The notes under the pieces are model-generated. The model worked only from the letters and a program-made list of their open reading frames with translations. It was not told the DNA's origin and did no database searches. From the NCBI GenBank assembly GCA_965279515.1, contig CBDIID010000003.1, forward strand, positions 3,424,001 to 3,488,000: a stretch of DNA of 64,000 nucleotides, in the 5' to 3' direction. The DNA is from Turneriella sp. (lineage in GTDB: Bacteria > Spirochaetota > Leptospiria > Turneriellales > Turneriellaceae). Of the stretch, positions 7,164-52,381 are shown piece after piece (within the stretch, counting starts at the first letter, position 1; each line of letters starts with the position of its first letter). Position numbers and translations under genes: made by a program.

Positions 7164-7205
7164 TTTTTGGTCGCCAATCTGTTCAGGCCTTAATTTGTGA
7201 AGGTT

Positions 7206-7958
7206 ATGCGCATCATCGACATGAAAAATGTGCGGAAAGATTATCCGCTTGGGGAAACCACGGTGAGCGCGCTTAAGGGTGTCGATTTCAGCGTCGACGA
7301 AGGCGACTTGCTGTCTGTGGTGGGCCCCTCAGGTAGCGGCAAGACCACGTTGCTCAATATCATCGGCTGCATCGATAAGCCGTCATCGGGGGATGTACGC
7401 ATTGCGGGACAAGATATCACCGCGCTTTCTGATAATGCCCTGACTGACCTGCGCCTCTACACCGTCGGTTTTATTTTTCAGTCATTCAACCTGATTCCTG
7501 TGCTCGATGTGCGCGAGAATGTCGAGTTTCCCTTGCTGCTGATGCGCGAAAACGCGCCCTCTAAAATTGAAATCCGCGAGCGCGCTGAAAAGCTGATTGA
7601 GGAAGTGGGATTAACCTCCCAGATCAAACAGCGCCCCGCCGAGCTGTCAGGCGGCCAGAGGCAGCGCGTGGCCATCGCGCGTGCCCTCGTGACTAACCCG
7701 AAGATTGTGCTCGCCGACGAACCCACGGCGAACCTCGATTCCGATACCGGCTTTAAGATTCTCGAACTCATGCGCAGCCTCAACGAGCAGCATAAAACAA
7801 CTTTTGTTTTTTCTACGCACGACCCCGATGTCATGCAGTATGCGCGCCACGTGGTGAAGATCCGCGACGGCTTGATTCATGAGGACAGCCAGCTGCACAA
7901 CGGCAAGCCCGTCGGCCCGGCGAAAAAAACACGTTCGCAAAAATCAGATACGAAATGA
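7206..7958 (+). CDS. ABC transporter ATP-binding protein (LolD/MacB-like)
   Basis: Walker A GPSGSGKTT, LSGGQRQRVAIARAL, LADEPTANLD. Confidence 0.96.
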   Translation: MRIIDMKNVRKDYPLGETTVSALKGVDFSVDEGDLLSVVGPSGSGKTTLLNIIGCIDKPSSGDVRIAGQDITALSDNALTDLRLYTVGFIFQSFNLIPVLDVRENVEFPLLLMRENAPSKIEIRERAEKLIEEVGLTSQIKQRPAELSGGQRQRVAIARALVTNPKIVLADEPTANLDSDTGFKILELMRSLNEQHKTTFVFSTHDPDVMQYARHVVKIRDGLIHEDSQLHNGKPVGPAKKTRSQKSDTK

Positions 7959-9478
7959 AAATCGCCTTTGTCATCGCCGCGCGCAACCTGCTGCGCCATA
8001 AGGGAAAAAGCTTCGTTATCGGGGCCATCCTCTTTGTTGGCGCGCTCATTATGACGCTCGGCAACGCGGTAATCTCGGGCATGAACCGTGGCCTCAGTGA
8101 AAACATTGTCGAGCGTTTCACCGGACACATCGTGCTCATCTCAGACACGCAAGAAAATCCCAACATTCTTTTCACGCCGATGGGCAAAGACATCGCGCTG
8201 ATAAAAAATTTTGAAAAGACCCGCGCGGTTTTAGCGAGTCAGCCTTATATCAAGAATTATCTCCCCGCCGCACGCGGCTTCAGCTTTGTGCTTACCGAAG
8301 AGGGCGATATCGATTTTGCGATGCTCTTGGGCGTCGATTTTCCCGAATATAACCGCATTTTCCGCGAGAATGTGAAACTCGTCGAAGGCAAGCTGCTCGA
8401 TAAAAATGAGCGCGGCATGCTGGTGAGCCAGGGACGGCGCACACGTTTTTTTAATGACCAGAATATCTGGGTGAAGCCGGTGGGATACCCCCTCGACGAA
8501 AAGAATTTTTCCGAAGAGGCGAAAAAGTATCGCGCAAAGATGATCGTCAAAGACAATTTGGTGCTCATGGGGGCATCGGGTGAGTCGACGGCATTCGACA
8601 TCCGTACCGACATCAAGGGTATCATACGCTATGAATTTCTCGACGATTTTTGGAAATTCTTCAATATCATGGATATCGAGACCTTCCGCGAATGTTTCCA
8701 ATGGGTGACCAATTCCGACGCTGCCGTAAATCTCACAAAAGACACGAAAAACCTGATTTCCAAAGAAGGCAATCTGGATGACCTCTTTAAAGAAGAAACT
8801 GTCGTCCAAACGAAGTCGGCAAAGGCCGAACTGACGAAAACATTGAAGCAACTCAAGGAGAAATCCACCGCGCCTAAGGTGCAGACCGATGCCGGCGCCT
8901 ATAACGTGGTTTTCGTCAAACTGCAGGACAAAGAGAATCTGCAGGCGCGCACCGATGAGCTCAATAATGCCCTGAAGGCTGCCGGCGCCTCGTCGCGCGC
9001 CGTGACGTGGCAGAAGGCAATCGGCCAGTTGGGTGATATGGCGGGTATTATCCGCGGCGCGCTCATGGGCTTCGTATTTTTTATCTTTTTTGTGGCGATT
9101 ATCATCATCATGAATACGCTTTCGATGGCGGCGCTCGAGCGCACGGCCGAGCTCGGCATGATGCGTGCGGTGGGCGCGCAAAAACGTTTTGTCACCGTCA
9201 TGTTCTTTATCGAGACCGCCTGCCTGGCGATTCTTTTCGGCGGGTTGGGTATTGTCGTCGGTGCGGCGTCGGTGCCGGTGCTGAAGGCCATGAATATCAC
9301 GGCGGAGAACAATATTTTGCAATTGCTCTTTGGAGGCAAAACTTTTGCGCCCTATCTGGGCATAGCCGATATTCTCGCCGGTGTCGTTGAGCTTGCGCTG
9401 GTAACCGTGATTGCCTCGATTTACCCGATCCGCGTGGCGCGGAGGATTACGCCTTTAGATGCGATATCGAGAGATTAA
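7955..9478 (+). CDS. ABC transporter permease, FtsX/LolE family
   Basis: IAARNLLRHK N-terminus, large periplasmic domain, ERTAELGMMRAVG, C-terminal ITPLDAI. Confidence 0.93.
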   Translation: MKIAFVIAARNLLRHKGKSFVIGAILFVGALIMTLGNAVISGMNRGLSENIVERFTGHIVLISDTQENPNILFTPMGKDIALIKNFEKTRAVLASQPYIKNYLPAARGFSFVLTEEGDIDFAMLLGVDFPEYNRIFRENVKLVEGKLLDKNERGMLVSQGRRTRFFNDQNIWVKPVGYPLDEKNFSEEAKKYRAKMIVKDNLVLMGASGESTAFDIRTDIKGIIRYEFLDDFWKFFNIMDIETFRECFQWVTNSDAAVNLTKDTKNLISKEGNLDDLFKEETVVQTKSAKAELTKTLKQLKEKSTAPKVQTDAGAYNVVFVKLQDKENLQARTDELNNALKAAGASSRAVTWQKAIGQLGDMAGIIRGALMGFVFFIFFVAIIIIMNTLSMAALERTAELGMMRAVGAQKRFVTVMFFIETACLAILFGGLGIVVGAASVPVLKAMNITAENNILQLLFGGKTFAPYLGIADILAGVVELALVTVIASIYPIRVARRITPLDAISRD

Positions 9479-9777
9479 TGTCCCCACCCCCGGCCCCTCC
9501 CCGCATGCAGGGAGGGGAGCTGTGAAGAGGAATAGGAAACGAATGAATGAGATGACGCGACGAGCCCGGCTGTTACGCAATCAGCCAACGCCAGCTGAAG
9601 ATTCGCTCTGGGATCTTATCCGGAACGGCAGGCTTGCGGGGATTCAGGTCTTGAGATTAAAAAACGAAGATGTTCTCAATGATCCCGTCACTGTTTTGGG
9701 AAAAATAACACATTTCGTTGGCGGCTTATCTTCAATGACCCCTCCCCCGTTTACGGGGGAGGCCGGGAGGGGGACAT
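9478..9777. mobile_element. 300-bp cassette: inverted palindromic repeat pair enclosing a deleted DUF559 gene
   Basis: Left end ATGTCCCCACCCCCGGCC; right end reverse complement ATGTCCCCCTCCCGGCC; each carries an internal CCTCCCC..GGGAGG hairpin; interrupts the two permease genes. Confidence 0.7.
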
Positions 9778-9779
9778 GA
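9522..9779 (+). pseudogene. DUF559 (Vsr-like endonuclease) remnant with internal deletion
   Basis: N-terminal 'RRARLLRNQPTPAEDSLWDLIRNGRLAG' joined directly to C-terminal 'IQVLRLKNEDVLND...VLGKI'; the central KFRRQ...VDF...IEVDG core is absent. Confidence 0.78.
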
Positions 9780-11548
9780 AACGACTCAAACTCTTAAATT
9801 CCCTTGCCTTCCGCAACCTGATACGCCAGCGCCGCCGCAACCTGCTCTTAGGTGTGGCCATTGCATTCGGCACAATGATCCTGATTCTCGCGAATTCATT
9901 CTCGCGCGGCATCACCGACACGCTGCTGAACAAGATCGTCGTACAGATGACAGGCCATCTCGAACTGGCGGTACTCGAGCGTTCGCGCGCACAGAATCTG
10001 CTGATCCGCGACCGCACGCTCTATCTGGACCTCTTGCAAAAGAACTTGCCCGATGTGCGGGAGATCGCCGAGAATGTCGCCGTGTTTTCGCGCGCGATCG
10101 GCAACGGCAAGGGCGAGAATGTCATCGTCGTGCCGATGGACTTCGGCGATGGACAGAACCTCGCGCAGAACAGCGACGCCGAATACCTGGTGAGCCGGGT
10201 TCAGGAAGGCAAGATCGAAGATATGCTTTCGGCGCAATACGAGAACCCGGTCGCTGTCTTTGCCGATAAGTCGCGCGCGCTCAACATCAAACTCTTCGAC
10301 ACGATCAAGGTTCGCCTCAAAACCGTCAGCGGTCAGGAGCAGAGCGCGCGTTTTACGGTAGTGATGCAGCTCAAATCAGAGAGCCTTTTCGAATCAGGTG
10401 CGATTTTTCTGCCGATCAAGAACCTCAAAAAACTGCGGGCAATCCGCGCGAACGAGACCGGCTCGTTGCAAGTCACCTTTAAGAATTTTGATTCACCGCG
10501 CACGGTTATCCGCCTCGCCGACAAGATCCATTCTCTCTTAAAACCGGGTATTGCCGCGATCCATGGTGAAGTGAAGGCAGGCAAAAAGACCGTTCCAGTC
10601 ACCGCCGGGGGATTGACCCAGGAATTCGAAAAATCAGATACCTTTAAGAAATCCATCCAACTCGTCAAAGGCGCCTGGCCGCGCGACCGCGATACCGACC
10701 GGATTCTGGTTTCGGAAAAGGTGGCTGCGGCTTTGAAGCTAAAACCCGATGCGAAGTTAATGCTCCGATTCAAATCGATCCACGCAACCGAAGAGGTCGA
10801 ACAAAATCTGATTGTTTCCGGAATTTTTAAGAGTATGGGAGATGCTCCAGCAAAGGTCGAGGCATATTTGCCCGAAGCCGCGTTCTACAAGGCTTACCTC
10901 AGCGATCTGCCGGTGCAGCGTACGCTGGCGCCTGAGAATATCTCTGAGGAATGGAAAAAAATTCTCGCCCCGGAATTCAGGCTCTTGCCGCGCACGTCGA
11001 CGGGCGACGATCTGCAAAAAAAGAACCAGGAACTGAGGAAGACCAACTTCTACGGGCCTGCCATCGACGTGCGCACGATGTACGAAAGCGCGAGCCAGGT
11101 TCTGGAACTCGAAGGTGCGCTCAACCTTATCACGCTCATCGCTGTGCTCATTCTCTTTTTCATCATTCTCATCGGCGTCGTGAATACGTTGCGCATGACA
11201 ATACGTGAGCGCACACGCGAGATTGGCACCATGCGCGCGATCGGCGTGCAGCGCAGCGACGTGCGCAATATTTTCCTCTTCGAAACCTTCCAGCTGGCGC
11301 TGTTCTCGGCGTTTGCAGGTTTGATTCTGGCCCTCATTGCCATGCTGGCGCTCTCGTCCTTTACGATCGACACGCAGAGCGTGCTGGGGATTTTCCTCGC
11401 GAAAAAGAAACTCTACTTTGTGCCGTTTGTCTCCGACATTGTGCGCAACATTATCATGATTTTGGTCATTTCAACGGTGACGGCATATTTTCCGTCGCGG
11501 CGCGCTGCAAAACTCGACGCGGCTGAAGCGTTACGTCATTACGAATAA
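9776..11548 (+). CDS. ABC transporter permease, FtsX/LolC family
   Basis: LAFRNLIRQRRR, ERTREIGTMRAIG, PSRRAAKLDAAEALR. Confidence 0.93.
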   Translation: MKRLKLLNSLAFRNLIRQRRRNLLLGVAIAFGTMILILANSFSRGITDTLLNKIVVQMTGHLELAVLERSRAQNLLIRDRTLYLDLLQKNLPDVREIAENVAVFSRAIGNGKGENVIVVPMDFGDGQNLAQNSDAEYLVSRVQEGKIEDMLSAQYENPVAVFADKSRALNIKLFDTIKVRLKTVSGQEQSARFTVVMQLKSESLFESGAIFLPIKNLKKLRAIRANETGSLQVTFKNFDSPRTVIRLADKIHSLLKPGIAAIHGEVKAGKKTVPVTAGGLTQEFEKSDTFKKSIQLVKGAWPRDRDTDRILVSEKVAAALKLKPDAKLMLRFKSIHATEEVEQNLIVSGIFKSMGDAPAKVEAYLPEAAFYKAYLSDLPVQRTLAPENISEEWKKILAPEFRLLPRTSTGDDLQKKNQELRKTNFYGPAIDVRTMYESASQVLELEGALNLITLIAVLILFFIILIGVVNTLRMTIRERTREIGTMRAIGVQRSDVRNIFLFETFQLALFSAFAGLILALIAMLALSSFTIDTQSVLGIFLAKKKLYFVPFVSDIVRNIIMILVISTVTAYFPSRRAAKLDAAEALRHYE

Positions 11549-12314: not shown

Positions 12315-13727
12315 GTGCGCGGATTGACTGCGGTTCTGTTTTCGTGCCTCGCCGCGGCGGCTAGCCTCACCCCCGTCGCTGCCGCGCCAACCCCGCTTTC
12401 GACTCCCCCTCCGCCTACGGCTCCTCCCCCGCGTGCGGGGGAGGTTGGGAGGGGGATAGAAGACGAGCTTTTTTCCGAACCTACTGTTGTGCCCATCGAA
12501 AAAATCACCGATAACAAAGTCGACGAGGTCACCGATAAGGAATCGATTGCTTTTTCGGGTTCGATCAACAGCCGTAACTCATATTCGATGAGCCGTGACT
12601 GGCTGCTCGGTAACAACTCTTCGACGGCGCAGAATACGCTGAACAACCAGCTGCAAAATAACCTCAACGTCGAAGCCCGTGCCCGCCGCGGTACACGGGC
12701 CGTTGTGAATATCGTCAACAATGTCTATGCACAGGGGAGATCCGAACAGCATACGATACAAGATGCCAACACGGGAGCCGTCTCGAAATACAATGAAACC
12801 GTCTATGCCGATTACCGCTTCACCGAAGCTTTTGTCGATGCCAACATTGCGCGCAGCATCTATTTTCGTGCCGGCAAACAGGTATTGGTCTGGGGGCGCG
12901 GCTTTTTCTGGAATCCTTCGGATGTCATCAATACCGAACTCAGGAGCGCTACCGACGCTTTCCAGTTTCGCGAGGGAACCTATGGGTTGCGCATGCATGT
13001 ACCCGTCGGCACGGTGTTTAATTTTTATTCGTTCACCGGCGTCGGCAAGAGCACGCGCGCCGAAGATATCATACAGGCCTTCAAGGCCGAGGTTGCCGTC
13101 AGCCGCGCGGAAATTGCTATCGGTGTGATTATGGGGCAAAAAAAGGTGCCGACATATTTGGCCGAGGCGAGCACGCGTTTCTGGACGCTCGACTGGCGCG
13201 CGGAGGCAACCTATGCCTATGGCGACAACGCGCAGCGCATCGATGTGAACACCTTCAACATCCTGAATCCGGTGACCTACCAGCTGCGCGACCAGCATGT
13301 CTTCAAGGGTGTGCTCAGCGTCGGGCGCAGCTTCGAGGTTTTCGACGTCGCCGACCGGCTGACGATCAACCTCGAATATTTTTACAACGGCGCGGGTTAC
13401 AGTGACAATGTCTTTGCCCAGAATGCGCTGGTGAAAGCTTACTTCGTCACGAACGGTCTCTACCGCGCGAACTACTATGGCATGCATTATCTCGGGTTTT
13501 TCGCGACATATACGAAGTTCATCCTCAACGAGATGACGCTGGGCCTCAACGGTTTTGGTAATCTGAGCGATAAGACATTTGTTTTTTCAGAACTGCTGAC
13601 CTATACCCCGCTCTTTAACCTGACGCTGACCTGGCAGAATAACATCTTCACGGGTGCCCCGGTGGGCGAATACACCGCGAGCAGCCTCGCTTGGTATTCG
13701 GAGTTCTCGGCGCGGGTGATCTTCTGA
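12315..13727 (+). CDS. putative outer-membrane beta-barrel protein
   Basis: Signal peptide, 'RAGKQVLVWGRGFFWNPSD', amphipathic strands, terminal Phe. Confidence 0.8.
   Translation: MRGLTAVLFSCLAAAASLTPVAAAPTPLSTPPPPTAPPPRAGEVGRGIEDELFSEPTVVPIEKITDNKVDEVTDKESIAFSGSINSRNSYSMSRDWLLGNNSSTAQNTLNNQLQNNLNVEARARRGTRAVVNIVNNVYAQGRSEQHTIQDANTGAVSKYNETVYADYRFTEAFVDANIARSIYFRAGKQVLVWGRGFFWNPSDVINTELRSATDAFQFREGTYGLRMHVPVGTVFNFYSFTGVGKSTRAEDIIQAFKAEVAVSRAEIAIGVIMGQKKVPTYLAEASTRFWTLDWRAEATYAYGDNAQRIDVNTFNILNPVTYQLRDQHVFKGVLSVGRSFEVFDVADRLTINLEYFYNGAGYSDNVFAQNALVKAYFVTNGLYRANYYGMHYLGFFATYTKFILNEMTLGLNGFGNLSDKTFVFSELLTYTPLFNLTLTWQNNIFTGAPVGEYTASSLAWYSEFSARVIF
12404..12457. repeat. palindromic repeat unit translated in frame (PPPPTAPPPRAGEVGRG)
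   Basis: TCCCCCTCCGCCTACGGCTCCTCCCCCGCGTGCGGGGGAGGTTGGGAGGGGGAT; hairpin CTCCCCCGC-GT-GCGGGGGAG. Confidence 0.8.
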
Positions 13728-18897: not shown

Positions 18898-20558
18898 CAG
18901 GGCTTAATTTTCCACTCGAGCATATCGAGGCCAATGGGGTAGACATTGACATTGGTAAAGCGGCGGTTCACGGCGATCAGTGCATAGCTCGCGTAGAGGA
19001 AGGTGTAGGGTTGCTCGTTGTAGACAATCTCATGGAAGCGGTGGTATAAATTATTGCGCTCTTTGGGGTCGAATGTCACGCGCGCCTGTTCGATGAGACC
19101 ATCGGTTTCTGCGTTGCCGAAGCCCGTAAAGTTGTGGCCCTTTTCGCGCTGCGAAGTATGCCAGAGCTGATAAGGGTCTGACTCGATGCCCGATTGCCAG
19201 CCGAGCATGACGGATTGAAAATCGCGCTGGTTAATTTTTTCGAGCATTGTCTGGAACTCGAGTTTGCGCAGCGTGAGATTGATGCCGGCTTTGCTGAAAT
19301 CTTCTTTAAGCACCGAAACGAACTGGTCGGCAAACCCGCCGCCCGCGGGAATCATGAGTTCGAACTCGAAGGGTTTACCGTCTTTGGCAAGATGGCCATT
19401 GCTATCGCGCACATACCCGGCGGCCTTGAGCAGCTCAAGCGCCTTGGCGGGGTCATATGTCAGCGGCTTCAGTTTCTTGTTATACTGCAGGCTCTGTTGC
19501 AGAAACGGACCCGTGGTAATTTCCGCAAGGCCTTCGAGAATCGTGGTGCGTACGCGTTCGGTATCCATGAGGTGCGCCATCGCATGCCGCACGCGCACAT
19601 CGTTGAATGGCGGACGGCGCAGGTTGTAGCCGACATAACGGTAGCTCGTGGCGAGGTATTTGATCTTCTGAAAATCGCGGTTAAATTTTTCGGAATTCGT
19701 CTGCCGTGTCCACTGTAGAGGCCTCAGATTATAGCTATCGATGTCGCCTTTTTTCAAAGCCTGCAATGCTACGGCGTCATTCTTGATTATCTGGTATTCG
19801 ATCTTTTGGATCTCTGGCTTCGGCCCCCAGTACTTTTCAAAGCGCGTCAAAATCACACGCGTGCCGTTTGTCCATTCGCCAAATTTGTATGGCCCGCTGC
19901 CGATTGGACCGCGGAAATTTCTCTCATCGGTCATGAAGTTACCGACCGAATAGATATGTTTTGGAATTACTTCAAAGCCGCCCAAATGCTCGAGCGCCAT
20001 CGCGTAGGGTCTTTTCATCCTGAAGACAATCGTATACGCATCGGGTGAAGCGATCGATTGTACATCCTTGTAATAAACCTTTTTGTGCGCATTCGGCACC
20101 TTGTCGCTCATCATCATCTCATAGCTGAACATGACATCGGCGGCCGTGAGTGGTTTCAGGTCATGGAAAAGGATGTTCTTCCGTAGCTTGAATGTGTAGG
20201 TCAGCTTGTCGGCGCCAACCGTAAATTTTTCGGCGATCTGCCCCGTGAGCTCCAGCGTGCGGTGATCGCGCTCGACGAGGCTTTCGAACAGGCGCATCTG
20301 TATAGCATGCGAATAGGCGTCTTCGGAGATCACCGGGTTGAGGTTGATGGGATCGCTTGCCAGATGGTAGGTGAGCGTCGTGGGTTCGACATCAAAACCG
20401 CGGCGGGCGCAGGATATCAGCAATAGAGTGCATATGGCGAGGCAATGTAAGGTACGCCCCCTTTCCCAGCCCTTCCCCCAAGTCTGGGGGAAGGGAGGTT
20501 GTGCTGCCCCCTCCCCAGACTTGGGGAGGGGGCTAGGGGGTGGGGCGTATGCTTTCAT
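18897..20558 (-). CDS. OppA/DppA-family peptide-binding lipoprotein, with a repeat-derived N-terminal insertion
   Basis: YTFKLRKNILFHD..PLTAADVMFS, PIGSGPYKF, DVRVRHAM; lipobox LLISC. Confidence 0.93.
   Translation of the reverse strand: MKAYAPPPSPLPKSGEGAAQPPFPQTWGKGWERGRTLHCLAICTLLLISCARRGFDVEPTTLTYHLASDPINLNPVISEDAYSHAIQMRLFESLVERDHRTLELTGQIAEKFTVGADKLTYTFKLRKNILFHDLKPLTAADVMFSYEMMMSDKVPNAHKKVYYKDVQSIASPDAYTIVFRMKRPYAMALEHLGGFEVIPKHIYSVGNFMTDERNFRGPIGSGPYKFGEWTNGTRVILTRFEKYWGPKPEIQKIEYQIIKNDAVALQALKKGDIDSYNLRPLQWTRQTNSEKFNRDFQKIKYLATSYRYVGYNLRRPPFNDVRVRHAMAHLMDTERVRTTILEGLAEITTGPFLQQSLQYNKKLKPLTYDPAKALELLKAAGYVRDSNGHLAKDGKPFEFELMIPAGGGFADQFVSVLKEDFSKAGINLTLRKLEFQTMLEKINQRDFQSVMLGWQSGIESDPYQLWHTSQREKGHNFTGFGNAETDGLIEQARVTFDPKERNNLYHRFHEIVYNEQPYTFLYASYALIAVNRRFTNVNVYPIGLDMLEWKIKP
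20453..20549. repeat. double-hairpin palindromic repeat read in frame within the OppA signal region
   Basis: Termini TACGCCCC / GGGGCGTA; hairpins CCCTTCCCCCA-AGTC-TGGGGGAAGGG and CCCCTCCCCA-GACT-TGGGGAGGGG. Confidence 0.88.
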
Positions 20559-46366: not shown

Positions 46367-47718
46367 AATAAACTCCCTGTTGCTGCGAATGAGATTGTAC
46401 CCGATGTCGGTGTGTCGCCGTTTAAAGCCTTCCATTGGCCATAGGTGTAAGCACCCGAAATTTCAAAATAAGGGGATGGCTTCCAGGCGAGACGGCCATA
46501 ACCCTGCACGGTCATCTCATCGAGGCTGTAGGTGAGAATGGCGCCGTTGTCGAAGAGCGGCGTGTAGAGGCTGCCGTAGAGCCCGCCTGCGGACAGGCAT
46601 AGCGTGCCGAGACAATAATGCAGTGCGGCGCCACCAGCCGCGTAGAAATTCGTCACCTGCGAGAAACGGATAGCCTGCACGGTGCCCGAAATTCCCAGCG
46701 AGAGGGATTTCGTCAGCGGAAACATATATTGCGGTGTCAGCGCCGCTCCTTTGTGACTCGAGAAGATCAGCACATCGCCGCCGATCGTGAACCGCGAGGT
46801 AATGTGGTTTTTATACGCGGCGCTGAGTGTCACCGCGTTGTTGAGGAGAGAATAATTCGAAGACAGATAGTGACCCGTGAAAGAGATCTGTGAGAGATCA
46901 GAGAATAAAACTGCCGATGAGAGTTTTGCTTCGCGCGTCTCATAACCCGTCGTCGACGCCGGGTTGCCGATATTGCTCTGTGCATAACCTGCACCGACGC
47001 TCAGGCCCGAATTGAAATTCCAGAGGCCGAATACGCCAGCGTCATAACCCGACGATTTCATGCGCGATCCGGAGAATGCAATATTCTGGTAATAAGGTAT
47101 CAGCTGGCCCGCGGGCGCATAACTCAGCGAACGCGCGCCGTACTGGTGCATGAGATCGGCATAGATATTTTCGGCGCTCGATGAATCACCGTTCTCTTTA
47201 TAAGCGCTCGCCATGCGCAGCTTTACCGGGTAGTTTTGCGGGTCGATGGCCAGTGCGGCGCGGCCCCATTGGATGCTCTCGCCGTATTTTTCGGCGCCTA
47301 AGAGCGCCCACTGCGCGCCGGCTTTAGAATCGAGGTTCTGCGAAATCGCGTCAGCTTTGAGATAATCTTCAGCCGCCGCGGCATATTCGCCGAGCATCAG
47401 GTTGCAATACGCTTTGTTGTTGAGCGCGGTGATGTACTGCGGTTCGGTTTCGAGGAGTTTTTGCCAGATATTGAGGGCCGCAAGATAGTTGCCGGATTGC
47501 ATTTCGGCGACAGCAGTGCTGACGGCGGTGGTGGCGGTGTTTGCGTGAAGAGTTTGAACCCAAAAAAATAAGAATAACGTGATTACTATCGCCCCACCCC
47601 GGCCTACGGCCACCCCTCCCCAATTCCAAGCTCCCTTCCCCCAGACTTGGGGAAGGCGCTTGCGGCAGGCGCAAGCCTGCGGGGGAAGGGGGCGTCCTAC
47701 CCCGCCGAAAGCACCCAT
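46363..47718 (-). CDS. TPR plus C-terminal beta-barrel-like protein; start uncertain because a repeat sits in the 5' end (alternative GTG at 47613)
   Basis: Signal-like IVITLFLFFWVQTLHA, TPRs, aromatic amphipathic strands, terminal Phe. Confidence 0.8.
   Translation of the reverse strand: MGAFGGVGRPLPPQACACRKRLPQVWGKGAWNWGGVAVGRGGAIVITLFLFFWVQTLHANTATTAVSTAVAEMQSGNYLAALNIWQKLLETEPQYITALNNKAYCNLMLGEYAAAAEDYLKADAISQNLDSKAGAQWALLGAEKYGESIQWGRAALAIDPQNYPVKLRMASAYKENGDSSSAENIYADLMHQYGARSLSYAPAGQLIPYYQNIAFSGSRMKSSGYDAGVFGLWNFNSGLSVGAGYAQSNIGNPASTTGYETREAKLSSAVLFSDLSQISFTGHYLSSNYSLLNNAVTLSAAYKNHITSRFTIGGDVLIFSSHKGAALTPQYMFPLTKSLSLGISGTVQAIRFSQVTNFYAAGGAALHYCLGTLCLSAGGLYGSLYTPLFDNGAILTYSLDEMTVQGYGRLAWKPSPYFEISGAYTYGQWKALNGDTPTSGTISFAATGSLF
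47592..47692. repeat. palindromic repeat unit at the junction of the transporter and TPR genes
   Basis: CCCCACCCCGGCCTACGGCCACCCCTCCCCA, then CCTTCCCCCAGACTTGGGGAAGG and GCAGGC-GCAA-GCCTGC. Confidence 0.85.
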
Positions 47719-49889
47719 TTGGCTCCATCCCTTTGCGCCGTTATTTTTCCAGGAAAGCTGCCCGAAAGCTCGGCCGAGGTTGTAAGTACCAAGCGTGCGC
47801 CGTTCGTAACAGTCGAAACGATCGGCGCGGTTGCATGCGATTGTGGGACCGCATTCCAGCTGAGCGAGACGCGATCGGTGAAGGGCAGCAAAATATCTTT
47901 CAGGATGCGGAACGGCAGCGCGGTGAAATATTTGTAAGAGATGCGCTCGCCATAGGCGAATTTTGCTGCCGAGAACGGGACCCGGTAGTAGGCGTTAAAA
48001 AGTAAAAAGAGCGCGCTGTGGCGGCTGCCGGTGTAGTCGAGCGCGGCGAACCAGTCGTTCGACGACGAGTACAAAAGCCGGTCGCCGCTTTGGTTTTCAA
48101 TGAAACGCGTGCCGAGAAAATCGATTTTGACTTCCCATTCTTCGCTCACCGTTTTGAAGTCGGGTGTCTCCAGGTTCACACGCATGACCTGCCCTGGCGC
48201 GAGCGTGAAGAAGGTCTTGAGGTTGAAGTCAGGTGAGAGATTCGCGACGACTTCGTCTTCAGCTGGTATGCCATTGAAGTGGATTTTCGAAACGCCGTTA
48301 TGCAGCACATACTGTGTGAGCGGCACCGGCACCGTGGCGCTGCCGATTTCAGGCGTCGCCTGAAAGTGCAGGTGCAGGTGGGGTTCGGCCGAGCGGCCCG
48401 AGTTGCCGGCGAGACCGAGTTTCGTGCCCGCGATGACATAGTCGCCTTCTTTGACCAGAACCGAATTTTTCTTCAGATGACAGACGAGAGAGAACAGCGC
48501 GGGACCATGCTGGATTAGAACGAGATTACCCCAGTTCTCGCGCAGATTCATCTCGCCGGGTAGATTGTCGTCGAGGTGCGCCACAACCTTGCGCACGGTT
48601 CCCGCCGCGACGGCCAAAACCGGCAGACCGAAAGTGAAATAGTCTTCTAAAGAGGGCGATTGACTTTTGCGCAGCGAGCCATCCTCACTGAGTGCCATAA
48701 AATCGAGACTCGCATACCACTCACCCTGGTGCGTGTATTTGCCGTGGTAACCCTGCGAGACCTTCCATTTGCCCCAGAACGGCAGGCGGATGTCGAGACC
48801 CAATTCGCCGAAGCGGCCCTGACGCGATTTGAAGAAGTCAAGGTTGTGCTCGGGTGAACCCGGCAGAAAATCGACGGGCCGCAGGTTCTTGTTATAAAGA
48901 AGCTTGATGCAATACAAAAAGAGCAGTGTCGTCATGGCAAACGGTAGCGTGAGCACAGGCATGTTAAAACTGACGAAAAAGATCTTGATGAATGACGCAA
49001 CCGTGGCGGTGGTCAGCGTCGCAAGGATGGCCAACACAAACGCGGCCGGACCCGGCACCAAAAAGATGCCACCCAGCGCAATCGAAGTCAGAATATAGTT
49101 AAAGGCGACGAGACCACCCGTCATATCGTTCATATCGCCTTTAAGGATCAGGTGAAATAACACACCTGTGAAAAAACCCATGAGCGACAGAAGAAATCCT
49201 AATCTGCTGGAGATGAGAAGGGCGAGCATGATGACCAGCCCCGCCCACGGGCTCGACTGGAAAAAAATCGCCCCGAGCGATTTCAGGTAGTAGAGCGCGT
49301 AGCGCGGCAGTTCGGGAAAAGATGCATCGATACTGAGGACGGTTTGTTTTTCGAGCGCAGTGCCGTCGTAGTTGTAGAAGGCGAGGTAACTGATCGAGCT
49401 CACGAGCACAAAGGGAATTGAAAGCGCGGGAATATTGAAAAAATAACCGAAGATGTGGTCGAGCGCGATGTTGACGAAGATCAGTAGCACGACGGCTACG
49501 AAGAGAATAAAGAGCGCCGTTGGCGAGAAGGCGTAATAGTAGCTGAACGACAGGCCGAGCAAGAGTGCATTGAAGCCGATGAGGCCCTTGCGGATTTTAT
49601 CCTCATGCACGCCGATGACGCGCGCCAGCAGGTTGGCGACGAGGATGGCAAAGACACCGAAGACGCCGGCCTTTAAGTTAAAGAACGTGGCTGCGAGGGC
49701 GATGACGCCGATTGCCTTGCGATCGCTGAAGAGAATGTTCGAGTAGGAGCGGAGTAAGGCTTCGACGACCCCACCCCCCAACCCCCTCCCCACAAATGTG
49801 GAGAGGGGGGGCCTCAGAGCCCCTCTCCACGTCAGTGGGGAGGGGTGGCCGTAGGCCGGGGTGGGGTTAGGCGGCGCTTGGAGTGACAT
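47697..49889 (-). CDS. urea-transporter-family domain fused to an M23 peptidase domain and a C-terminal domain
   Basis: GLIGFNALLLG, AFNYILTSIALGG, LTLPF; then THQGEWYASLDF, WGNLVLIQH, GNSGRSAEPHLHLH. Confidence 0.88.
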   Translation of the reverse strand: MSLQAPPNPTPAYGHPSPLTWRGALRPPLSTFVGRGLGGGVVEALLRSYSNILFSDRKAIGVIALAATFFNLKAGVFGVFAILVANLLARVIGVHEDKIRKGLIGFNALLLGLSFSYYYAFSPTALFILFVAVVLLIFVNIALDHIFGYFFNIPALSIPFVLVSSISYLAFYNYDGTALEKQTVLSIDASFPELPRYALYYLKSLGAIFFQSSPWAGLVIMLALLISSRLGFLLSLMGFFTGVLFHLILKGDMNDMTGGLVAFNYILTSIALGGIFLVPGPAAFVLAILATLTTATVASFIKIFFVSFNMPVLTLPFAMTTLLFLYCIKLLYNKNLRPVDFLPGSPEHNLDFFKSRQGRFGELGLDIRLPFWGKWKVSQGYHGKYTHQGEWYASLDFMALSEDGSLRKSQSPSLEDYFTFGLPVLAVAAGTVRKVVAHLDDNLPGEMNLRENWGNLVLIQHGPALFSLVCHLKKNSVLVKEGDYVIAGTKLGLAGNSGRSAEPHLHLHFQATPEIGSATVPVPLTQYVLHNGVSKIHFNGIPAEDEVVANLSPDFNLKTFFTLAPGQVMRVNLETPDFKTVSEEWEVKIDFLGTRFIENQSGDRLLYSSSNDWFAALDYTGSRHSALFLLFNAYYRVPFSAAKFAYGERISYKYFTALPFRILKDILLPFTDRVSLSWNAVPQSHATAPIVSTVTNGARLVLTTSAELSGSFPGKITAQRDGAKWVLSAG
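49769..49866. repeat. double-hairpin palindromic repeat read in frame at the transporter N-terminus
   Basis: CCCCCTCCCCACA-AA-TGTGGAGAGGGGG and CCCCTCTCCAC-GTCA-GTGGGGAGGGG; 49836-49866 is the exact reverse complement of 47592-47622. Confidence 0.88.
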
Positions 49890-51263: not shown

Positions 51264-52381
51264 GCGACTGCCTTATGTGTCCCCACCCCCTGCCCCGCAC
51301 GCGGGGGAGGCTGGGAGGGGGAGCGGGGTGGCGCGTATGAAATCATCCCAACCGTCGACAGCGATTCAATGGTCGCCATCGGCACAATCTCATCGCGCGC
51401 GTGGCGGATGAATACCATGCCGACTTCGTATTCTGTGCGGGGCTCAACGCTCTCACCCAACGCGAGGGCGACATGCATTGCTGGCAGGTTCATGCCCGCG
51501 CGCGTCGCGAGGTAGGTCCATGCGGGAAAACGCGGATTCATTTCGATGAGAAAGACTTCGTCGGTCTTGTTCTCGACGATGAACTCGAGTTCGAAACCGC
51601 CGTCCCAGTTTAAAAACTGGATGAGCTTGCGCGTCATCTCGAGAATTTTTTCGTTTTTGATCGTGACCCCCGACCAGGCCTTGCCTTTGTCGGTGACGAA
51701 GAGCTTTTTCATCGCCACGGCGCCATAGAGTTTGCCGCGTTTTGCGAGGCCGGCGACGTTCATCTCTTCGCCGGAAATCATTTTCTGCGCGATGGCCGGG
51801 ACTCCCCACTGCGAAGCGAGCTTGTAAAACCAGCCGACAGCTTCTTCGGGGGAATACGCGGCATACGCCTCATAATACTGCCCCTTGACCAACAGGGGAA
51901 ATCCCAGTTTATCGAAAGATTCGCGCAGCGCCGCCACGTCGGAAATCCGCACCGTCTCGGGCGTCTTGACAATGTCGGTCGGAATTTTCTCTGCAAGCGT
52001 CGGTTTGTCGCGGAGTGCCAGGCTCTCTTTGAGGGGCAAGAGGAGTTTGATACCGAGATAGCGCAGCTCACCTTCGATTTTGATATAATTTTCGAGCTCA
52101 GAATCGAGCGTCGGCAGAATAACATCGATGCGTTCTTTTTTGTGGATCTCGGCGATACGGCTCAGCAGCGCGTCTGGCCCGGTGTTCGGGTAGGGCGTTA
52201 GGTAACAGGCCGAGACAAGATCATTCATGTAGTTACCCGCATCAAGCACGCCGTAGGTGATGCCGATATGGCGGTGGCGCGCCCCGGATTCTTTGAGCGA
52301 GCGTAAGACCGCGAGGCCAGGAGCCGGGCTATCGGCTGCATTCAGGCCCGTCACACAGACGGTGGTGCGGCGGCTTACCAT
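51260..52381 (-). CDS. ATP-grasp carboxylate-amine ligase
   Basis: LGFPLLVKG, FELEF, LIEMNPRFPAW. Confidence 0.9.
   Translation of the reverse strand: MVSRRTTVCVTGLNAADSPAPGLAVLRSLKESGARHRHIGITYGVLDAGNYMNDLVSACYLTPYPNTGPDALLSRIAEIHKKERIDVILPTLDSELENYIKIEGELRYLGIKLLLPLKESLALRDKPTLAEKIPTDIVKTPETVRISDVAALRESFDKLGFPLLVKGQYYEAYAAYSPEEAVGWFYKLASQWGVPAIAQKMISGEEMNVAGLAKRGKLYGAVAMKKLFVTDKGKAWSGVTIKNEKILEMTRKLIQFLNWDGGFELEFIVENKTDEVFLIEMNPRFPAWTYLATRAGMNLPAMHVALALGESVEPRTEYEVGMVFIRHARDEIVPMATIESLSTVGMISYAPPRSPSQPPPRAGQGVGTHKAVA
51280..51332. repeat. palindromic repeat unit translated in frame at the ATP-grasp C-terminus
   Basis: CCCCACCCCCTGCCCCGCACGCGGGGGAGGCTGGGAGGGGGAG; closely matches the 12404 unit. 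Confidence 0.82.

What the first reader, a model, noticed from the sequence alone, without database searches (positions are those of the whole stretch)
9478..9777. Inverted repeat pair enclosing an internally deleted DUF559 endonuclease: candidate parent-type element of the repeat family
Seen: a 300-bp segment between two permease genes whose ends are inverted copies (ATGTCCCC..CCCGGCC plus hairpin) of the repeat found across this window. The enclosed ORF keeps the DUF559 N- and C-terminal motifs but lacks the central core (junction near 9641). Knowledge: DUF559 is a Vsr-like PD-(D/E)xK nuclease fold, and REP/RAYT systems pair a nuclease gene with flanking inverted palindromes. Inference: DUF559 may mobilise or act on these repeats, forming a REP/RAYT-like system with a different enzyme, and this copy is a non-autonomous derivative.
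Basis: partly seen in the sequence, partly recalled or inferred. Interest (0 to 1): 0.85.

Follow-up and report, generated by a model that had tools for sequence, protein, structure and literature searches.

The report
Decayed nuclease cassette with hairpin caps
Between two transporter genes lies the broken remnant of a tiny nuclease gene (DUF559) boxed by mirror-image GC-rich hairpin repeats; intact versions occupy the same spot in two related species, and this gene-plus-caps package is likely a small, undescribed selfish DNA element that would give the old "BoxC/triplex" repeats a partner enzyme.

Summary
Window 9480-9775 is a 296-bp insert sitting exactly between the stop codon of one FtsX permease gene and the start codon of the next. 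It is bounded by inverted caps, each a C/G-run block plus a GC hairpin, and it encodes a DUF559 remnant (Pfam E 6e-7).

- **Same junction in 10 congeners:** 7 are empty, 2 hold a full-length DUF559 cassette with the same caps, and 1 holds a gene-less element.
- **What the window copy lacks:** a 13-nt leader and a 150-nt in-frame core that carries every invariant residue, so it is a dead derivative.
- **Flanking repeats, genus:** 17 of 20 full-length DUF559 genes are flanked by repeats (displaced controls 7 of 76).
- **Flanking repeats, many phyla:** 52 of 73 loci (controls 10 of 274).
- **Genome co-occurrence in 151 spirochaete genomes:** odds ratio 17.
- **Cap architecture:** it matches the published BoxC/PIT/TMECO triplex motif, whose authors report no mobility gene nearby.
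- **RAYT:** the genome's single RAYT gene carries a different palindrome.

The mechanism is not shown. My best inference is homing-like, nuclease-driven copying. I found no consistent target duplication.

This scan has noted the same DUF559-plus-hairpin pairing before on other DNA (416 notes, at least 382 genomes). I found no paper that describes it.

The parts
7955..9478 (+). Upstream FtsX-type ABC permease gene; its TAA stop (9476-9478) abuts the element
   Evidence: ORF list; PF02687 E 2.4e-17
9480..9517 (+). Left cap: C-run block GTCCCCACCCCC (9480-9491), GG, then hairpin CCCCTCCCCGCA/TGCAGGGAGGGG (9494-9517, one mismatch)
   Evidence: The same cap is found at 9 loci of the genome and in the orthologous cassette of G009.
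9543..9638 (+). DUF559 N-terminal remnant (MNEMTRRARLLRNQPTPAEDSLWDLIRNGRLA)
   Evidence: PF04480 stretch at residues 32-63 of ORF 9459-9779; alignment with full-length copies
9638..9639 (+). Junction of a 150-nt (50-codon) in-frame deletion. It removes F33, R35, Q36, D46, E57, D59, H63, D72 and R75 of the family alignment. The short similar words TGG(G)T(T)AT flank the deleted stretch in the full-length copies.
9639..9738 (+). DUF559 C-terminal remnant (GIQVLRLKNEDVLNDPVTVLGKI...)
9739..9775 (+). Right cap: hairpin CCTCCCCCGT/ACGGGGGAGG (9741-9762), CC, then mirror G-block GGGAGGGGG (9765-9773) and AC. This is the C-stem / G-stem / mirrored G-stem layout of an intrastrand triplex motif.
   Evidence: The stems and terminal block are identical in the G005 and G009 cassettes, while the loops differ. 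Mirror rule tested.
9459..9779 (+). Open frame of 106 aa across the element. Its TGA (9777-9779) overlaps the downstream ATG (ATGA). The original leader ATG of the full-length copies is lost.
9776..11548 (+). Downstream FtsX-type ABC permease gene; its ATG abuts the element
   Evidence: PF02687 E 1.8e-15
49765..49870 (.). Gene-less double-hairpin element of subfamily B. Its caps match those of the intact DUF559 cassette at G000:C3:3620047-3620370.
51279..51325 (.). Collapsed subfamily-A element: left C-block joined to a right-type cap
20459..20545 (.). Gene-less double-hairpin element of another subfamily
47588..47700 (.). Composite cap-like element (approximate limits)
12405..12455 (+). Right-cap-like half element read in frame inside ORF 12315-13727 (PPPRAGEVGRG)

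Best explanation
Window 9480-9775 is an internally deleted, catalytically dead copy of a small cassette made of a DUF559 (Vsr-fold) nuclease gene boxed by inverted GC-rich 'triplex-motif' hairpin caps, and this cassette family is likely a selfish mobile unit whose nuclease is predicted to drive its own copying.

**Shown**
- Full-length cassettes with the same caps occupy the identical stop/start junction in two congeners, while seven congeners have an empty junction.
- The window copy lacks a 13-nt leader and a 150-nt core that holds all invariant residues.
- Gene-less two-hairpin copies with the same caps are dispersed in the genome.
- DUF559 genes across many phyla sit between such repeats.
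- In the full-length copies the frame starts at a leader ATG placed where the host start codon stood, runs through both caps, and ends in ATGA on the host start. The operon's stop and start codons therefore remain intact.

**Inferred**
- The nuclease nicks or cuts DNA at or near caps or unoccupied sites, and the break is repaired by copying from a cassette-bearing template, in a homing-like way.
- The caps are the cis-acting part.
- Loss of the gene yields non-autonomous remnants such as this one, and finally ~85-bp gene-less copies.
- The window copy is tolerated only because it leaves the permease genes intact.
For: **Orthologous junction.** Among 10 congeners, 7 are empty, 2 hold full-length cassettes (G005 479 bp, G009 457 bp) and 1 (G004) holds a 161-bp gene-less element behind the same leader.

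**Deletions and core residues.** Both deletions are defined by the alignment. The invariant residues come from 19 genus sequences.

**Cap conservation.** The right cap stems and terminal block are identical in all three copies, while the interior differs by 33-50%.

**Tree of the flanking genes.** Each occupied lineage is sister to an unoccupied one. This needs at least 3 gains at one site, or about 6 clean losses.

**A second cassette site.** Intact-1 at C3:3620047 again lies exactly on a stop/start junction. It is filled in the sisters G000 and G001, decayed in G008, and empty in 9 congeners.

**Gene-less copies on junctions.** Two subfamily-A gene-less copies (C3:1480873 and C3:2035532) also lie on ATGA junctions.

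**Flanking repeats, genus.** There are 24 PF04480 hits in 11 of 14 genomes, at differing loci. Of 20 full-length hits, 17 have flank repeats above the 95th percentile of displaced controls, against 7 of 76 controls.

**Flanking repeats, many phyla.** 52 of 73 testable loci exceed that threshold against 10 of 274 controls, and 45 of 73 exceed the control maximum.

**Genome co-occurrence.** In 151 Spirochaetota genomes, 19 have the hairpin pattern, 24 have DUF559 and 12 have both. The odds ratio is 17 and the Fisher p is 4e-7. Of the 9 genomes with 3 or more hairpins, 8 have DUF559.

**Purifying selection on the nuclease.** Between G005 and G009, third positions differ by 0.56, while first and second positions differ by about 0.24 (my arithmetic).

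**Relatives with known activity.** The profile of the genus nucleases hits 3HRL (E 2.9e-30) and the homing endonuclease I-Bth0305I, 3R3P (E 0.0018).

**Recent copying.** Subfamily-B caps of the intact cassette are 100% identical over 44-45 nt to 2 dispersed copies in the same genome.
Against: - No cleavage, movement or recent insertion was observed.
- There is no consistent target-site duplication. ATGA(A) repeats are seen at the G005 and G009 cassette, and GTGA in G000 but not in its sister G001, which shares that insertion. Flanks of the gene-less copies show no direct repeat.
- The cassette is as diverged as its host genes between G005 and G009 (0.35 against 0.29 overall; third positions 0.56 against 0.54, saturated). 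Ancient vertical presence with repeated loss is therefore not excluded.
- G011 (99% complete, 2 contigs) has no DUF559 match yet at least 9 cap-like matches. G000 keeps 6 subfamily-A left-cap loci (at least 90% identity over at least 30 nt, the window's own included) without an intact subfamily-A nuclease. Caps can persist without the enzyme.
- 7 of 19 hairpin-bearing spirochaete genomes had no DUF559 match.
- Kin are not independent, so the Fisher test overstates the association.
- A one-domain nuclease of about 110 aa lacks the extra DNA-binding domains of I-Bth0305I (abstract of PMC3239194).
- The cap hairpins do not fold better than shuffles.
Confidence: 0.55

Rival explanations
1. The caps spread and turn over by themselves or through host replication and repair, for example slippage or template switching at hairpin/triplex structures. 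Under this reading DUF559 is cargo that landed between two caps, or a host-useful nuclease that processes such structures. The window copy is then simply a decaying passenger.
For: - Caps persist without the gene: G011 has 0 DUF559 matches and at least 9 cap matches, and G000 subfamily A has no intact nuclease.
- 7 of 19 hairpin-bearing genomes lack DUF559.
- One intergenic slot carries four different elements in four congeners.
- Holder et al. report instability at TMECO sites and found no mobility genes nearby (PMC4666352, sections 18 and 20 read).
- No target-site duplication is seen.
Against: - The gene lies precisely between inverted caps in most loci across phyla.
- Gene and caps are gained or lost as one unit at the permease junction.
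- The nuclease is under purifying selection with all core residues kept in 19 of 19 genus sequences.
- Copy numbers rise together: G098 has 83 hairpins and 11 DUF559 matches.
Confidence: 0.25
2. The hairpin-capped elements are ordinary MITE/REP-type repeats moved in trans by a transposase encoded elsewhere (a RAYT or an IS element). DUF559 is then irrelevant to their movement.
For: - Terminal inverted repeats and many short gene-less copies resemble MITEs and REPINs.
- The genome has one RAYT-type gene (PF01797, E 1.1e-20).
Against: - The RAYT gene is flanked by a different palindrome (GCTGGGAATTAATTCCCAGC type), not by these caps.
- There is no consistent target duplication.
- The only gene recurrently enclosed by the caps is DUF559.
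- Holder et al. found no transposase near TMECO (PMC4666352, section 20).
Confidence: 0.08
3. Nothing is mobile. DUF559 is an old resident gene whose flanking hairpins are expression or stability signals. Patchy presence then reflects ordinary gene loss, and the window shows one such loss in progress.
For: - The cassette is as diverged as the host genes.
- Presence at the same site in three lineages fits vertical descent.
Against: - Losses would have to be clean to the nucleotide about 6 times at one 0-4-nt junction.
- The 24 hits sit at differing loci in 11 of 14 congeners, with 0 to 6 per genome.
- One copy lies in frame inside a Type ISP restriction enzyme gene.
- Dozens of gene-less cap pairs lie at unrelated sites.
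- No promoter-like or terminator-like site is predicted in the element.
Confidence: 0.07
4. The inverted caps make the segment an invertible (programmed-inversion) switch.
For: [quoted passage not shown]
Against: - All three orthologous copies have the same orientation, and their frames are coupled to the host ATG.
- No invertase lies nearby in the operon.
- The contigs laid showed no strand-switch joint at the element, but only 4 runs were laid.
Confidence: 0.03

Closest known systems
BoxC / PIT / TMECO intrastrand triplex motifs (Holder et al. 2015, PMC4666352; sections 15, 16, 18 and 20 read)
   Same: [quoted passage not shown]
- Copies are dispersed, and some form inverted pairs.
- Stems are more conserved than loops, and presence varies among relatives.
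- In this genome the third block mirrors the hairpin arm with T opposite A. This holds perfectly in 15 of 66 asymmetric-arm instances, against 0 of 66 for a direct copy.
- E. coli ycjD (DUF559) has a BoxC-like motif about 170 nt downstream.
   Different: - The published pattern is CCCTCNCCC..GGGNGAGGG in Proteobacteria. The window's caps are sequence variants (CCTCCCCC / GGGGGAGG / GGGAGGGGG) in a spirochaete.
- The paper found them always intergenic in MG1655. It reports never finding mobility activities nearby, and it does not mention an endonuclease or ycjD (0 occurrences).
- Here the motifs box a nuclease gene, and some copies lie inside reading frames.
REP/REPIN repeats with their RAYT gene ('REPtron')
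   Same: A small nuclease-type gene is flanked by inverted palindromic repeats that also occur as many gene-less paired copies between genes.
   Different: - The enzyme is a Vsr-fold PD-(D/E)xK nuclease, not a Y1 HUH transposase.
- Cassettes vary in number (0-6) and place among congeners.
- The genome's own RAYT gene has another palindrome.
- What I state about RAYT biology is recalled, not read here.
Vsr-like 'EDxHD' homing endonucleases (I-Bth0305I, PDB 3R3P; PMC3239194 abstract read; PMC2677866 passages read)
   Same: - They share the nuclease fold lineage (profile hit E 0.0018).
- Some are free-standing genes inserted between or inside host genes without destroying them.
- The same site is occupied in diverged hosts.
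   Different: - I-Bth0305I is multidomain, homodimeric and intron-borne, and it footprints about 60 bp.
- These cassettes are single-domain (about 110-150 aa), have no intron or intein, carry hairpin caps, and leave many gene-less copies at unrelated sites.
DUF559 structural representative 3HRL (Neisseria 'endonuclease-like protein') and E. coli YcjD
   Same: Clear sequence homologues: E 7.6e-15 for a single sequence and 2.9e-30 for the profile.
   Different: No function is assigned to either. No repeat association was found in the papers I could search.
MITEs derived from IS elements
   Same: Terminal inverted repeats are present, and there is a series from full-length through internally deleted to minimal copies.
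   Different: There is no transposase and no consistent target-site duplication.

Membership tests
DUF559 (PF04480), Vsr-like PD-(D/E)xK nucleases | Match to the family profile above the curated cut-off | tested here: met
   29.7 bits against a cut-off of 20.6, E 6.1e-7, in two stretches
DUF559 (PF04480), Vsr-like PD-(D/E)xK nucleases | Intact catalytic core (D46, E57, D59 and H63 of the genus alignment) | tested here: not met
   All lie in the 150-nt deletion. The window copy is a pseudogene of the family.
Intrastrand triplex motif (BoxC/PIT/TMECO class) | C-stem, loop, G-stem, short loop and a second G-stem that mirrors the first | tested here: met
   - Right cap in the window: CCTCCCCC-GTTTAC-GGGGGAGG-CC-GGGAGGGGG.
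- Genome-wide, 66 of 88 symmetric-arm instances have a perfect third block.
- Among 66 asymmetric-arm instances, 15 have a perfect mirrored third block and 0 a perfect direct one.
Intrastrand triplex motif (BoxC/PIT/TMECO class) | Match to the published TMECO consensus CCCTCNCCC N3-6 GGGNGAGGG N3 GGGNGAGGG | tested here: not met
   The window caps are variants of that sequence. Other subfamilies in this genome (CCCTCACCCC...GGGAGAGGGG) come closer.
Intrastrand triplex motif (BoxC/PIT/TMECO class) | Actual triplex formation | not testable with these tools
   This needs CD/NMR or footprinting. Holder et al. saw a triplex in vitro for single strands only (PMC4666352, section 20).
REP/RAYT (REPtron) | Enclosed gene is a Y1 HUH transposase (PF01797) | tested here: not met
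   The enclosed gene is DUF559. The single PF01797 gene lies elsewhere with a different palindrome.
MITE / IS-derived element | Terminal inverted repeats | tested here: met
MITE / IS-derived element | Fixed-length target-site duplication and a transposase-encoding parent | tested here: not met
   No consistent duplication is seen. The parent encodes a nuclease, not a transposase.
Homing endonuclease gene (free-standing, EDxHD lineage) | Nuclease homologous to I-Bth0305I | tested here: inconclusive
   The profile hit to 3R3P is E 0.0018 over positions 36-105. The N-terminal DNA-binding domains are absent (abstract of PMC3239194).
Homing endonuclease gene (free-standing, EDxHD lineage) | Cleaves the unoccupied allele and is copied in by repair | not testable with these tools
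   Only the pattern is seen: the same site is occupied in 3 non-sister lineages.

The most novel reading that the evidence does not exclude
DUF559 is the missing partner enzyme of the BoxC/PIT/triplex-motif repeats found across bacteria. Nuclease plus mirror-image triplex-forming caps would form a minimal, phylum-spanning class of selfish element. Such elements settle to the nucleotide on stop/start junctions, or in frame inside genes. They are translated through their own caps, and they decay into the enigmatic gene-less repeats.
Probability: 0.45. Interest if true: 0.85.

Novelty: new variant of a known kind. Interest (0 to 1): 0.72.

Why it matters
BoxC/PIT/TMECO repeats have been known since the 1990s. 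They are abundant in hundreds of genomes and still have no origin or function. The 2015 survey states that it found no mobility function near them. DUF559 is a very common bacterial domain of unknown function with a solved structure.

A tested link between the two would explain both. It would add a nuclease-based counterpart to REP/RAYT. It would also show how a selfish element can live inside operons and genes without an intron or intein.

This locus is a useful natural series. The same junction is seen empty, full-length, core-deleted and gene-less in one genus, which supplies ready substrates for cleavage and mobility assays.

Tried and rejected
- **Target-site duplication.** I looked at two cassette sites and nine subfamily-A copies and found no consistent repeat.
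- **Vertical descent against transfer.** Cassette and flank divergence are both saturated at third positions, so this test is uninformative.
- **Intergenic slot at window 49765-49870.** Four congeners carry four different elements there, so no clean empty/filled pair could be drawn.
- **Rfam.** The only match in 9300-9950 is a chance-level snoRNA hit (13.2 bits against a gathering score of 38, E 0.62).
- **Promoter/terminator scan.** 0 sites were found.
- **Folding energy of the caps.** It is not better than shuffles.
- **Sequencing runs.**
  - No RNA holder is listed.
  - One 126-nt, depth-3 contig of run X6 matches window 9389-9477 without a difference and then joins 9776 with 'GT' between. 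That would be an unoccupied allele in a close relative. With a side of 30 nt in a metagenome that also holds 9-15% diverged relatives, I treat it only as a hint.
- **E. coli as a within-species test.** ycjD is found in 3378 of 5426 genomes. In the one ycjD-less genome I opened (H64), an 8-kb efflux operon lies between sapF and fabI, so it gives no clean empty site.
- **The search for related loci with all 19 sequences.** This failed because no stretch was conserved enough. A 6-sequence subset was used instead, so the 80 loci are biased to one DUF559 clade carrying the I[LA]DFYCA[KE] motif.
- **Paper search on 'PD-(D/E)XK' with MITE.** The tool rejected the term syntax and I did not repeat the search.
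- **Literature coverage.** Searches on 'DUF559' (25 papers), 'ycjD' (21 papers), 'intrastrand triplex' and 'Vsr-like / homing endonuclease / inverted repeats' gave no paper linking DUF559 to these repeats. Subscription journals and supplements were not seen.
Full report
**What is there.**
The window lies in a 4.9-Mb, 53% GC genome at G000:C3:3424001-3488000. Record titles of relatives and earlier notes point to the spirochaete genus Turneriella.

The local operon reads ABC ATPase (7197-7958), FtsX permease (7955-9478), FtsX permease (9776-11548) and a LolA-like protein. A 296-bp insert lies between the TAA of the first permease and the ATG of the second.

- **Left end:** GTCCCCACCCCC, then GG, then the hairpin 9494-9517.
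- **Right end:** the hairpin 9741-9762, then CC, then GGGAGGGGGAC.
- The two ends are inverted copies of each other.
- The motifs are far above chance in the window.
- The 106-aa frame 9459-9779 matches DUF559 above Pfam's cut-off in two stretches.

**It is a decayed copy of a full-length cassette.**
I searched the flanking DNA in 13 congeners and read the same permease junction in 10 of them.

- Seven are empty (TAAATG, TAATATG, TGATATG or TAACAATG).
- G005 and G009 hold 479-bp and 457-bp inserts with an intact DUF559 gene. The right cap is the same in both, and the left cap is the same in G009.
- G004 holds a 161-bp gene-less element behind the same short leader.

Aligned with these, the window copy lacks the 13-nt leader (ATGAAGCAAATTT) and 150 nt (50 codons) of the core, with the junction at 9638/9639. 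The lost core holds all nine of these invariant positions of a 19-sequence genus alignment: F33, R35, Q36, D46, E57, D59, H63, D72 and R75. The copy is therefore dead.

The right cap stems and terminal block are identical in the three copies, although the interiors differ by 33-50%. In the full-length copies the frame starts at the leader ATG, reads through both caps, and ends in ACATGA on the host start codon.

**Pattern of occupancy.**
A maximum-likelihood tree of 1.8 kb of flanking permease DNA has 7 of 8 inner branches well supported. It pairs each occupied lineage with an unoccupied one: (G005, G004) with (G007, G011), G009 with G002, and G000 with G001. This needs either at least three gains at one nucleotide-precise site or about six clean losses.

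Flanks directly next to the insert follow the species tree, so no co-conversion is visible. Cassette and host genes are equally diverged, but third positions are saturated, so age cannot decide between the two histories. First and second codon positions are much less diverged than third positions, which indicates purifying selection on the nuclease.

**The family in this genome and genus.**
G000 has two intact DUF559 genes.

- The gene at C3:3620047 is boxed by inverted caps of another subfamily ('B'). It again sits exactly on a stop/start junction. That site is filled in the sisters G000 and G001, holds a decayed trace in G008, and is empty in nine congeners.
- The gene at C3:1445171 lies between two direct copies of a ~115-bp palindromic-ended element.

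Gene-less two-hairpin copies of about 65-130 bp are common.

- The strict hairpin pattern occurs 77 times per strand.
- Subfamily-A caps are at 9 loci (left cap) and 7 loci (right cap).
- Subfamily-B caps are at 21 loci (left cap) and 12 loci (right cap).
- Two subfamily-A gene-less copies also lie on ATGA junctions.

In the genus there are 24 PF04480 hits in 11 of 14 genomes, with 0 to 6 per genome at differing loci. Of 20 full-length hits, 17 have inverted or direct flank repeats above the 95th percentile of displaced controls, against 7 of 76 controls. The three misses still show GC hairpins on both sides by eye.

**Beyond the genus.**
A six-sequence profile fetched 80 loci from many phyla. 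The set is biased to one DUF559 clade.

- Of 73 testable loci, 52 have flanking inverted-repeat scores above the 95th percentile of displaced controls (controls 10 of 274).
- 45 of 73 exceed the control maximum.
- GC hairpins on both sides occur in 34 of 73 loci against 2 of 274 controls.
- The caps are of the same kind everywhere I looked: a C-run block next to a CCCTCTCC-loop-GGAGAGGG hairpin.

In an even sample of 151 Spirochaetota genomes, the hairpin pattern and DUF559 co-occur in 12 genomes. Seven have the hairpin only, 12 have DUF559 only and 120 have neither. The odds ratio is 17 and the Fisher p is 4e-7, though kin are not independent. DUF559-only genomes carry variant caps that the narrow pattern misses.

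**Relation to known things.**
The caps have the architecture of the BoxC/PIT/TMECO intrastrand triplex motif of Holder et al. 2015 (PMC4666352, sections 15, 16, 18 and 20 read). In this genome the third block is the mirror of the hairpin's G arm with T opposite A. This holds perfectly in 15 of 66 asymmetric-arm cases, against 0 for a direct copy.

That paper reports inverted pairs and says no mobility activity was ever found near TMECO. The words endonuclease and ycjD do not occur in it. E. coli ycjD (DUF559) has a BoxC-like motif about 170 nt downstream, a degenerate hairpin at its stop codon, and a duplicated 3' fragment.

The nuclease is homologous to 3HRL and more weakly to the homing endonuclease I-Bth0305I. 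The genome's single RAYT-type gene carries an unrelated palindrome. My paper searches found no description of DUF559 boxed by these repeats. One table lists DUF559 among predicted inversion targets.

**How it most likely works.**
Shown:
- There is a unit made of nuclease gene plus inverted caps.
- It is present or absent as a whole at nucleotide-precise gene junctions.
- It decays through internal deletion into gene-less cap pairs.
- It occurs across phyla.

Inferred, at about 0.4-0.55: the nuclease acts on caps or unoccupied sites, and repair copies the cassette, as with free-standing homing endonuclease genes. The caps would serve as recognition or structural ends, and the open frames through the caps let the element sit in operons and genes.

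Against this reading: no activity has been seen, there is no consistent target duplication, caps persist in G011 without any DUF559, and vertical descent with loss is not excluded.

**Verdict.**
The enzymatic link remains an inference.

The same pairing was noted by this scan on other DNA. I tested three of its leads here: the BoxC link, the homing-nuclease relation and the RAYT gene. This locus adds a four-state series at a single junction (empty, full-length, core-deleted and gene-less).

Noticed in passing
window 12405-12455: A right-cap-like half element (CCTCCCCCGCGTGCGGGGGAGGTTGGGAGGGGGA) is read in frame near the N-terminus of ORF 12315-13727 as PPPRAGEVGRG. That ORF has no Pfam match.
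   Followed up: partly
window 49765-49870 and the same slot in G001, G003, G008, G006: One intergenic slot holds four different hairpin-cap elements in four congeners and none in G006. The slot is stable while its occupant changes.
   Followed up: partly
L031 (G013:C8:23329-23649): A capped DUF559 cassette lies in frame inside a Type ISP restriction-modification enzyme gene. It sits between the N6_Mtase part and the NPPY/Eco57I part, and the open frame is 1343 aa without stops.
   Followed up: partly
G000:C3:1444900-1445620 (L002): A second architecture is seen here. The DUF559 gene, with about 150 nt of its own upstream DNA, lies between two direct copies of a ~115-bp element with palindromic ends (ACCACCCCGCCCC...GGGGTGGT). 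The same layout occurs in G002, G003, G005, G007 and G009 with two distinct protein clades.
   Followed up: partly
Its sister G004 keeps the leader and a related left cap but has no gene and a matching right cap. This suggests caps are exchanged between copies.
   Followed up: no
G000:C3:2616152-2616472 (L171): The genome's single RAYT-type gene (PF01797) is flanked by inverted GCTGGGAATTAATTCCCAGC-type palindromes, a separate repeat system in the same genome.
   Followed up: partly
L170 (E. coli K-12 1350900-1352300) and L183: ycjD is found in 3378 of 5426 complete E. coli genomes. In the one ycjD-less genome I opened, an 8-kb RND/MFS efflux operon lies between sapF and fabI. Downstream of ycjD in K-12 there is a duplicated ycjD 3' fragment next to a BoxC-like motif.
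   Followed up: partly
window 51279-51325: A collapsed subfamily-A element joins the left C-block directly to a right-type cap. It lies just downstream of a stretch reading ...TTTTTTTCATGCG.
   Followed up: no
G000:C3:2421349 and 2423268; 705032-706842: Subfamily-B cap matches lie 1.7-1.9 kb apart and may enclose other DNA. I did not examine these pairs.
   Followed up: no
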